Shown: piece by piece, positions 13,811 to 30,004 of the stretch | How positions within the stretch are numbered: the stretch's first letter is position 1 | Layout: every line of letters begins with the position of its first letter | From: Hydrolagus affinis | Taxonomy: Eukaryota | DNA: 64,000 bases | NCBI GenBank assembly: GCA_012026655.1 | Contig: JAAILG010000990.1 | Location: forward strand, 1 to 64,000 | Direction of reading: 5' to 3' | Notes under the pieces: generated by a model | The model's input: only the letters and a program-made list of their open reading frames with translations | Told to the model about the DNA's origin: nothing | Database searches by the model: none | Position numbers and translations under genes: made by a program

Positions 13811-30004
<16,194 letters not shown>

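What the first reader, a model, noticed from the sequence alone, without database searches (positions are those of the whole stretch)
17002..17004. Conserved FVCHP histidine replaced by Gln in the SNAT1-like paralogue while the Na+-site residues stay intact
Seen: codon CAA gives AFVCQP, versus AFVCHP in the adjacent SNAT2. ELLHTY is also changed to ELLCSY. The TM1 Asn (SNAI, SNAT2 N82 equivalent) and TM8 Thr (LTVP, T384 equivalent) are kept, and the 479-aa frame is intact. Known (from memory): SNAT2 H304A, which I map to this motif, is transport-deficient but shows an anion leak current. Inference: with loss of the terminal His, this paralogue may have a different substrate range, be channel-like, or act as a sensor (transceptor). 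That would be notable in a urea/osmolyte-retaining lineage.
Basis: partly seen in the sequence, partly recalled or inferred. Interest (0 to 1): 0.7.

Follow-up and report, generated by a model that had tools for sequence, protein, structure and literature searches.

The report
Chimaera SNAT1 with His-to-Gln swap
Chimaeras carry glutamine instead of an otherwise conserved histidine in the core of their amino-acid transporter SNAT1; relatives use the same swap, so the protein likely still transports, probably with changed pH or affinity behaviour, rather than being a dead transporter or channel.

Summary
Codon 17004-17002 (minus strand) is CAA, Gln274, in an intact 15-exon, 479-aa SLC38A1 (SNAT1) gene next to SLC38A2. 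Contigs from two studies give the same letters, and Callorhinchus milii SLC38A1 has the same Gln, so it is a holocephalan trait. All 117 other SNAT1 sequences aligned (10 sharks/rays) keep His. The site is rat SNAT2 His304.

The inference from H304A is weak. Gln is the family's recurrent alternative at this column (11 of 121 representatives, including a mormyrid SNAT5-like protein). The working transporter VIAAT has Gln320 there, and Ala impairs it too. The Na+ site and modelled substrate residues are intact, and TM1/3/6/8 differ at only 2 of 124 sites from Callorhinchus. The ELLH change and the missing terminal His are common in sharks and frogs. Urea-retaining sharks keep the His, which argues against an osmolyte link.

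Best reading: a working Na+-coupled neutral amino-acid transporter with a non-titratable His substitute and likely retuned kinetics (0.68). One lead remains: a second holocephalan change, Phe300Val in TM7, aligns to the partner residue of VIAAT's putative chloride site. No function was tested.

The parts
17002..17004 (-). Codon 274, CAA = Gln, at the SNAT2 His304 (rat) / His306 (human) column; first residue of TM6b after the unwound segment
   Evidence: in the model of the C. milii orthologue the helices are 256-268 and 272-281 and Gln is residue 272
16967..17046 (-). Coding exon 10 of SLC38A1 (TM6, carries Phe269, Cys273, Gln274)
16840..16842 (-). Codon 300, GTC = Val (Phe in 117 of 117 other SNAT1 rows), TM7; aligns to VIAAT His344
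   Evidence: the alignment to VIAAT is inferred through the genome's own VGAT-like gene
26540..26542 (-). Asn70, TM1 Na+-site residue (SNAT2 N82 equivalent), kept
16556..16558 (-). Thr352, TM8 Na+-site residue (rat SNAT2 T384 equivalent), kept
16628..16630 (-). Cys328 in ELLCSY; a variable position (His in 3 of 10 elasmobranch and 88 of 107 tetrapod rows)
13811..30004 (-). SLC38A1 (SNAT1) coding span, 15 exons, 479 aa: 30004-29925, 27830-27749, 26587-26472, 24800-24727, 23210-23118, 20987-20912, 19459-19377, 17995-17937, 17753-17640, 17046-16967, 16882-16782, 16653-16535, 14537-14396, 14276-14179, 13933-13811
   Evidence: agrees exon by exon with C. milii V9KGV6 (418 of 477 identical)
43283..54246 (-). 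Neighbouring SLC38A2 (SNAT2)-like gene, 15 exons, 516 aa, keeps His315 and a terminal His
   Evidence: the name rests on sequence likeness and recalled gene order

Best explanation
This is the chimaera SLC38A1 (SNAT1) gene with Gln in place of the conserved TM6 His, shared with Callorhinchus, and it likely still works as a Na+-coupled neutral amino-acid transporter. Shown: the frame is intact, the Na+-site and modelled substrate residues are kept, and Gln recurs at this column across the family. Inferred mechanism: the residue sits at the start of TM6b beside the substrate pocket and needs a polar side chain that can hydrogen-bond during the inward-gate movement. His and Gln both supply it; Ala does not. 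Gln cannot be protonated, so any pH effect through this residue would be lost, and affinity or turnover may be shifted. The Phe300Val change in TM7 may be a neighbouring, compensating change.
For: (1) Of 150 listed family representatives, 121 cover the column: His 109, Gln 11, one misaligned Ser; no other residue. (2) A mormyrid SNAT5-like protein (XP_023693120.1) has the same swap independently. (3) Human VIAAT has F315-S316...T318-S319-Q320...F322...P324 and Q320A markedly impairs transport (bioRxiv 10.64898/2026.09.12.751155, section 7 and passages; passages of 10.64898/2026.09.24.754290). HMMER aligns the Gln of the genome's VGAT-like gene to the His column. (4) Of 16 core positions checked through the neighbouring gene, 14 are identical; the exceptions are this His and Met/Ile73, which is Ile or Val in all 6 chondrichthyan rows shown. 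(5) Differences from C. milii: 2 of 124 in TM1/3/6/8, 18 of 307 in all helices, 41 of 170 in loops and ends. (6) No extra decay: 25 and 23 changes at 186 conserved columns against 25-36 in ten elasmobranch rows; 7 clade-private changes against 2-6 in elasmobranch subgroups. (7) Confident LeuT-fold model, pLDDT 87.5, nearest AUX1/LAX3 (Z 39.6-41.0, rmsd 2.6-2.8) and SLC38A9 (Z 36.3, rmsd 3.4).
Against: No transport assay exists for this protein and no His-to-Gln mutant of a SNAT was found in print. His is kept in 117 of 117 other SNAT1 rows, so the swap is not freely tolerated in this subfamily. His304 is reported as required for Ala transport (PMC4927162, introduction passage; the primary paper was not held). 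None of the 11 Gln-bearing representatives is known to me to be assayed. The uptake data for SLC38A10, the other Gln-type relative, are weak and vary by batch (PMC5458457 section 21). Conservation of the core would also be expected of a ligand sensor. VIAAT is distant and one residue shorter after the Gln, so its column match is an alignment, not a structure overlay.
Confidence: 0.68

Rival explanations
1. Transport is nearly lost and the protein is kept as an anion-leak channel or amino-acid sensor.
For: The site is His304. SNAT2 has an anion leak (title of Zhang and Grewer 2007 in reference lists; that H304A keeps it is recalled). Gln274 and Val300 align to Q320 and H344 of VIAAT's putative Cl2 site. 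Human SNAT1 is proposed as a transceptor in melanoma (PMC13072269 passages). SNAT2-, SNAT3- and SNAT4-like genes with His remain in the genome.
Against: Ala and Gln are not equivalent: Ala impairs both His-type and Gln-type members. Val removes rather than adds a polar ligand at the Cl2-like site. Both Na+-site residues are kept. Sensor roles in mammals do not need this swap.
Confidence: 0.1
2. The swap changes substrate choice, for example towards N-methylated osmolytes, as an adaptation in chimaeras.
For: The residue lies beside the pocket. AUX1 His249, probably the same column (five residues after Tyr244, as His306 after Phe301), contacts substrate and sets pH-dependent binding (PMC12337342 passages). 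Rat C303S next door raises Km for Ala 8-9 fold.
Against: Elasmobranchs share the urea and methylamine strategy (established knowledge) and keep His in 10 of 10 rows. The freshwater mormyrid has the same swap. The modelled carboxylate- and amine-binding residues are unchanged. No selection test could be run.
Confidence: 0.1
3. A mildly harmful change was fixed by drift in a fast-evolving, partly redundant gene: a weaker transporter with no new role.
For: Chondrichthyan SNAT1 has longer branches than tetrapod SNAT1 and 25 shared changes at columns conserved in tetrapods. His-bearing paralogues are present.
Against: The Gln has been kept in both holocephalan lineages seen, with a nearly frozen transport core (2 of 124). 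Holocephalans are not more diverged than sharks.
Confidence: 0.11
4. Sequencing error or private variant.
For: The two matching contigs have depth near 3 and one may be the assembly's own source.
Against: C. milii SLC38A1 has Gln in all five entries read; two studies' contigs match letter for letter.
Confidence: 0.01

Closest known systems
SLC38A1 / SNAT1 (System A) of sharks, rays and tetrapods
   Same: Best hits are all SNAT1-named or cluster with them; 57-66% identity to the C. milii orthologue; Na+-site and pocket residues kept.
   Different: Gln for the TM6 His and six further holocephalan-only changes at conserved columns: T59A, Y224W, F300V, V360I, T409S, L418I/V.
Rat SNAT2 H304A mutant
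   Same: Same residue position.
   Different: Ala deletes the side chain; Gln keeps a hydrogen-bonding amide of similar reach. The mutant's leak phenotype is recalled; the paper was not held.
VIAAT / VGAT (SLC32A1)
   Same: Gln (Q320) at the aligned TM6 column, needed for transport.
   Different: H+/Cl- linked vesicular antiporter; has His344 in TM7 where this protein has Val; distant in sequence.
Mormyrid SNAT5-like protein XP_023693120.1
   Same: Independent Gln at the TM6 column and Val at the TM7 column.
   Different: System N branch, freshwater teleost, no function known to me.
Arabidopsis AUX1 / LAX3
   Same: Closest solved fold (Z 39.6-41.0); TM6 His249 is a titratable substrate-contact residue, probably the same column.
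   Different: H+-coupled auxin importer, about 10% identity; the column match is inferred from spacing.

Membership tests
SLC38 / AAAP (Pfam Aa_trans) | PF01490 match above the curated cut-off | tested here: met
   C. milii orthologue 220.9 bits against cut-off 25.6; the window's TM1 exon also passes
SLC38 / AAAP (Pfam Aa_trans) | 11-helix LeuT fold with broken TM1 and TM6 | tested here: met
   Model of the C. milii orthologue (not of the window's own spliced protein), pLDDT 87.5; breaks at 73-75 and 269-271; matches SLC38A9 and AUX1
SLC38A1 orthologue | Groups with named SLC38A1 and is the genome's single SNAT1-type gene | tested here: met
   Sister to C. milii SLC38A1 (100/100) and with elasmobranch SNAT1 (100/99) in a 24-row tree with one outgroup, SNAT3/4/5 left out; 5 of 5 genome hits to the TM6 exon include no second SNAT1-type copy (lower bound). 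The Atlas's automatic names for the nearest clusters say symporter 2 and 3, and one shark entry is named transporter 4-like.
System A transporter | Na+-site Asn (TM1) and Thr (TM8) | tested here: met
   Asn70 and Thr352
System A transporter | TM6 His (SNAT2 H304); a conserved residue, not part of the functional definition | tested here: not met
   Gln274
System A transporter | C-terminal pH-sensing His (SNAT2 H504); also not part of the definition | tested here: not met
   Ends in Phe479; a last-residue His is present in 3 of 10 elasmobranch and 75 of 107 tetrapod rows
System A transporter | Electrogenic 1 Na+ : 1 amino acid symport, MeAIB-sensitive, inhibited by low pH | not testable with these tools
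   Needs expression and uptake or voltage clamp
Transceptor or anion channel | Substrate-gated signalling or anion conductance without net transport | not testable with these tools
   No sequence signature defines it

The most novel reading that the evidence does not exclude
Gln274 and Val300 together remodel the pocket that corresponds to VIAAT's putative Cl2 chloride site, so chimaera SNAT1 is a natural low-transport, pH-independent anion-leak or sensor form of System A, and the same pair arose again in a mormyrid SNAT5-like protein.
Probability: 0.1. Interest if true: 0.65.

Novelty: new variant of a known kind. Interest (0 to 1): 0.33.

Why it matters
No solved structure of SNAT1-5 turned up in the sequence or fold searches, and the role of the TM6 His is known to me mainly from an Ala mutant. 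A natural, long-kept Gln version gives a ready test of whether the His acts as a proton switch (as proposed for AUX1 His249) or only as a hydrogen-bond partner, and whether it shapes the anion leak. The likely outcome is a retuned but ordinary transporter, so the interest is mostly for transporter biophysicists.

Tried and rejected
Sequencing error and private variant: rejected. ELLH change and terminal His loss as special features: rejected. Osmolyte link: not supported, elasmobranchs keep His. Pseudogene or general decay: rejected.

Runs X1 and X13 have contigs that span the codon and list no difference there, but 87 rows were hidden, so they are not counted as proof. In the narrow re-lay X1, X10 and X13 laid only a paralogue's contig with 12 differing letters. 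No RNA holder was listed, which says nothing on expression.

The region search around the motif had only 7 candidates and found C. milii and His-bearing Heterodontus only: uninformative on Gln elsewhere. A dN/dS test could not be run. The 17 codon changes visible in relatives' contigs (9 silent, 8 replacements, the replacements all in loops or at a helix edge) come from a truncated list and are only indicative. Val at the TM7 column is not confined to Gln bearers: 10 of 109 His rows and 3 of 11 Gln rows, so covariation is only a hint.

The primary papers on H304A, the Na+ site, His504 and SLC38A9 were not held. The Atlas could not read the SLC38A10-like exon, so that name is recalled. Earlier findings of the scan: none.

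Full report
Observation. The window is contig C990 of a 1.11-Gb genome. It holds two SLC38 genes in tandem on the minus strand. I set exon limits from splice sites and obtained a 479-aa gene A (30004-13811) and a 516-aa gene B (54246-43283), each with 15 coding exons in matching phases and one terminal stop. Gene A codon 274 (17004-17002) is CAA, Gln; gene B has CAC, His315. Asn70 and Thr352 are kept and ELLCSY is as described.

Is it real? Public runs hold the stretch in 14 of 16 listed rows from 7 studies, none on record as RNA. Contigs of X8 and X7, from two studies, cover the codon with no differing letter; both are shallow and one may be the assembly's source. The stronger proof is Callorhinchus milii SLC38A1, 418 of 477 residues identical to gene A, which has the same Gln in all five entries read. 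From recall, V9K-type accessions come from cDNA, which would show transcription; I did not verify this.

How unusual? The homologue search found 3418 proteins at E<=1e-30 among 7993 scored and listed the best 120. Aligned with genes A and B, the column has Gln in gene A and three C. milii models, and His in the 117 others plus gene B. Ten of the 117 are elasmobranch; the other 107 are named tetrapod entries or unnamed ones that I grouped with them by likeness. The tree (24 rows, one outgroup, SNAT3/4/5 not included) joins gene A with C. milii (100/100) and these with sharks and rays (100/99). The genome shows five loci with this exon; the other four have His. Gene A is thus most likely the SLC38A1 orthologue, and the Gln arose on the holocephalan stem. 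The two side observations are ordinary: the ELLH His is kept in 3 of 10 elasmobranch and 88 of 107 tetrapod rows, the terminal His in 3 of 10 and 75 of 107.

Which residue is it? In PMC4927162 (passages read) the rat C303A primer encodes Thr-Phe-Ser-Phe-Val-Ala-His-Pro, so His304 is this residue. The introduction states that His304 is required for Ala transport, that N82 and T384 form the Na+ site, and that His504 relates to pH sensitivity. The primary paper was not held, so the anion leak of H304A is recalled; only its title was seen. PMC9906736 (passages) places Phe301 and Glu315 in TM6 of human SNAT2 and names the modelled pocket residues. Mapped through gene B, 14 of 16 such positions are identical in gene A. 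The second model of the C. milii protein (pLDDT 87.5, pTM 0.87; the first reached only 54.8) puts the Gln at the first position of TM6b after the unwound stretch and matches LAX3, AUX1 and SLC38A9.

Does Gln kill transport? The family says probably not. The profile search found 670 representatives at E<=1e-30 and listed 150; 121 cover the column, with His in 109, Gln in 11 and one misaligned Ser. Of the 11, I looked up 10: a mormyrid SNAT5-like protein, two Anaeramoeba, Capsaspora, Didymoeca, Diphylleia and four unnamed. The window's own genome has an SLC38A10-like gene reading FVCQP across a splice junction and two VGAT-like genes with Gln aligned or next to the column (these names are recalled). 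SLC38A9 has His and SLC36A1 has Ile. In human VIAAT the numbering F315, S316, T318, S319, Q320, F322, P324 fits that motif; Q320 with S319 and H344 forms a putative chloride site, and Q320A markedly impairs transport (bioRxiv 10.64898/2026.09.12.751155, passages and section 7; passages of 10.64898/2026.09.24.754290). In AUX1, His249 contacts substrate and its protonation sets binding at low pH (PMC12337342 passages); the column match is inferred from spacing and fold. So Ala harms both His-type and Gln-type members, while both His and Gln occur in working ones. Against this: SLC38A10 uptake is weak and batch-dependent (PMC5458457 abstract and section 21), the Gln-bearing representatives are unassayed as far as I know, and SNAT1 itself never shows Gln outside holocephalans in this sample.

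Selection. Gene A and C. milii differ at 2 of 124 sites in TM1/3/6/8, 18 of 307 in all helices and 41 of 170 elsewhere. At 186 columns shared by tetrapod SNAT1 and gene B, holocephalans show 25 and 23 changes, elasmobranchs 25-36. This excludes decay but cannot tell a transporter from a sensor. Chondrichthyan SNAT1 as a whole has longer branches than tetrapod SNAT1 and 25 shared changes.

The remaining lead. One of the seven holocephalan-only changes, Phe300Val in TM7, aligns to VIAAT His344, the partner of Q320. The mormyrid protein also pairs Gln with Val, but Val occurs in 10 of 109 His rows and 3 of 11 Gln rows, so this is a hint of compensation or of a remodelled anion pocket, not a result. 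Human SNAT1 has been proposed as a transceptor (PMC13072269 passages), which keeps the sensor idea open but does not tie it to this swap.

In print? Searches for SNAT2 with H304A, histidine 304, His304, His306 or H306 gave no papers (one search listed 4, none with His304; none of the 20 listed of 28 held H304). Searches pairing elephant shark, Callorhinchus or holocephalan with SLC38A1 showed one methylation survey in the listing, not read, and otherwise none among the 20 listed each time, out of 2,255 and 421 papers. The library lacks most subscription papers, and bioRxiv supplements, which hold the VIAAT alignments, were closed. The sequence itself has been public in C. milii entries.

Verdict. 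A real, lineage-wide substitution at a tested site, most likely tolerated, with probable changes in pH response or affinity. New variant of a known kind; interest 0.33.

Noticed in passing
P0168 (XP_023693120.1, Paramormyrops kingsleyae): A SNAT5-like protein with an independent His-to-Gln at the same TM6 column and Val at the same TM7 column.
   Followed up: partly
L023 (G000:C19018:6500-12000, minus strand): A divergent SLC38A10-like gene (name recalled) whose TM6 reads FVCQP across a splice junction; a search with its next exon found no second copy.
   Followed up: partly
L001 (G000:C60429) and L002 (G000:C8130): Two VGAT/SLC32A1-like long single-exon frames, one canonical-looking and one more diverged (names recalled).
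   Followed up: no
P0004, P0008, P0010, P0011, P0026 (galeomorph shark SNAT1): Thr for the TM1 Ser that matches SNAT2 Ser87, a modelled substrate contact; all chondrichthyan SNAT1 also share G404A in TM10 and M150I, so the whole clade's SNAT1 may be retuned.
   Followed up: no
window 64000 onward, L024 (G000:C990:64001-74000); L019 (G000:C1078): No SLC38 exon stands out in the 10 kb past the window; a SNAT4-like gene (name recalled) lies on another contig.
   Followed up: partly
window 56083-56182: A 100-base N gap upstream of the SLC38A2-like coding exons; it does not touch either gene model.
   Followed up: no
window about 17155-17225 and 17447-17483: Short very high-copy repeat pieces in the intron upstream of the TM6 exon (tens of thousands of contigs laid).
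   Followed up: no
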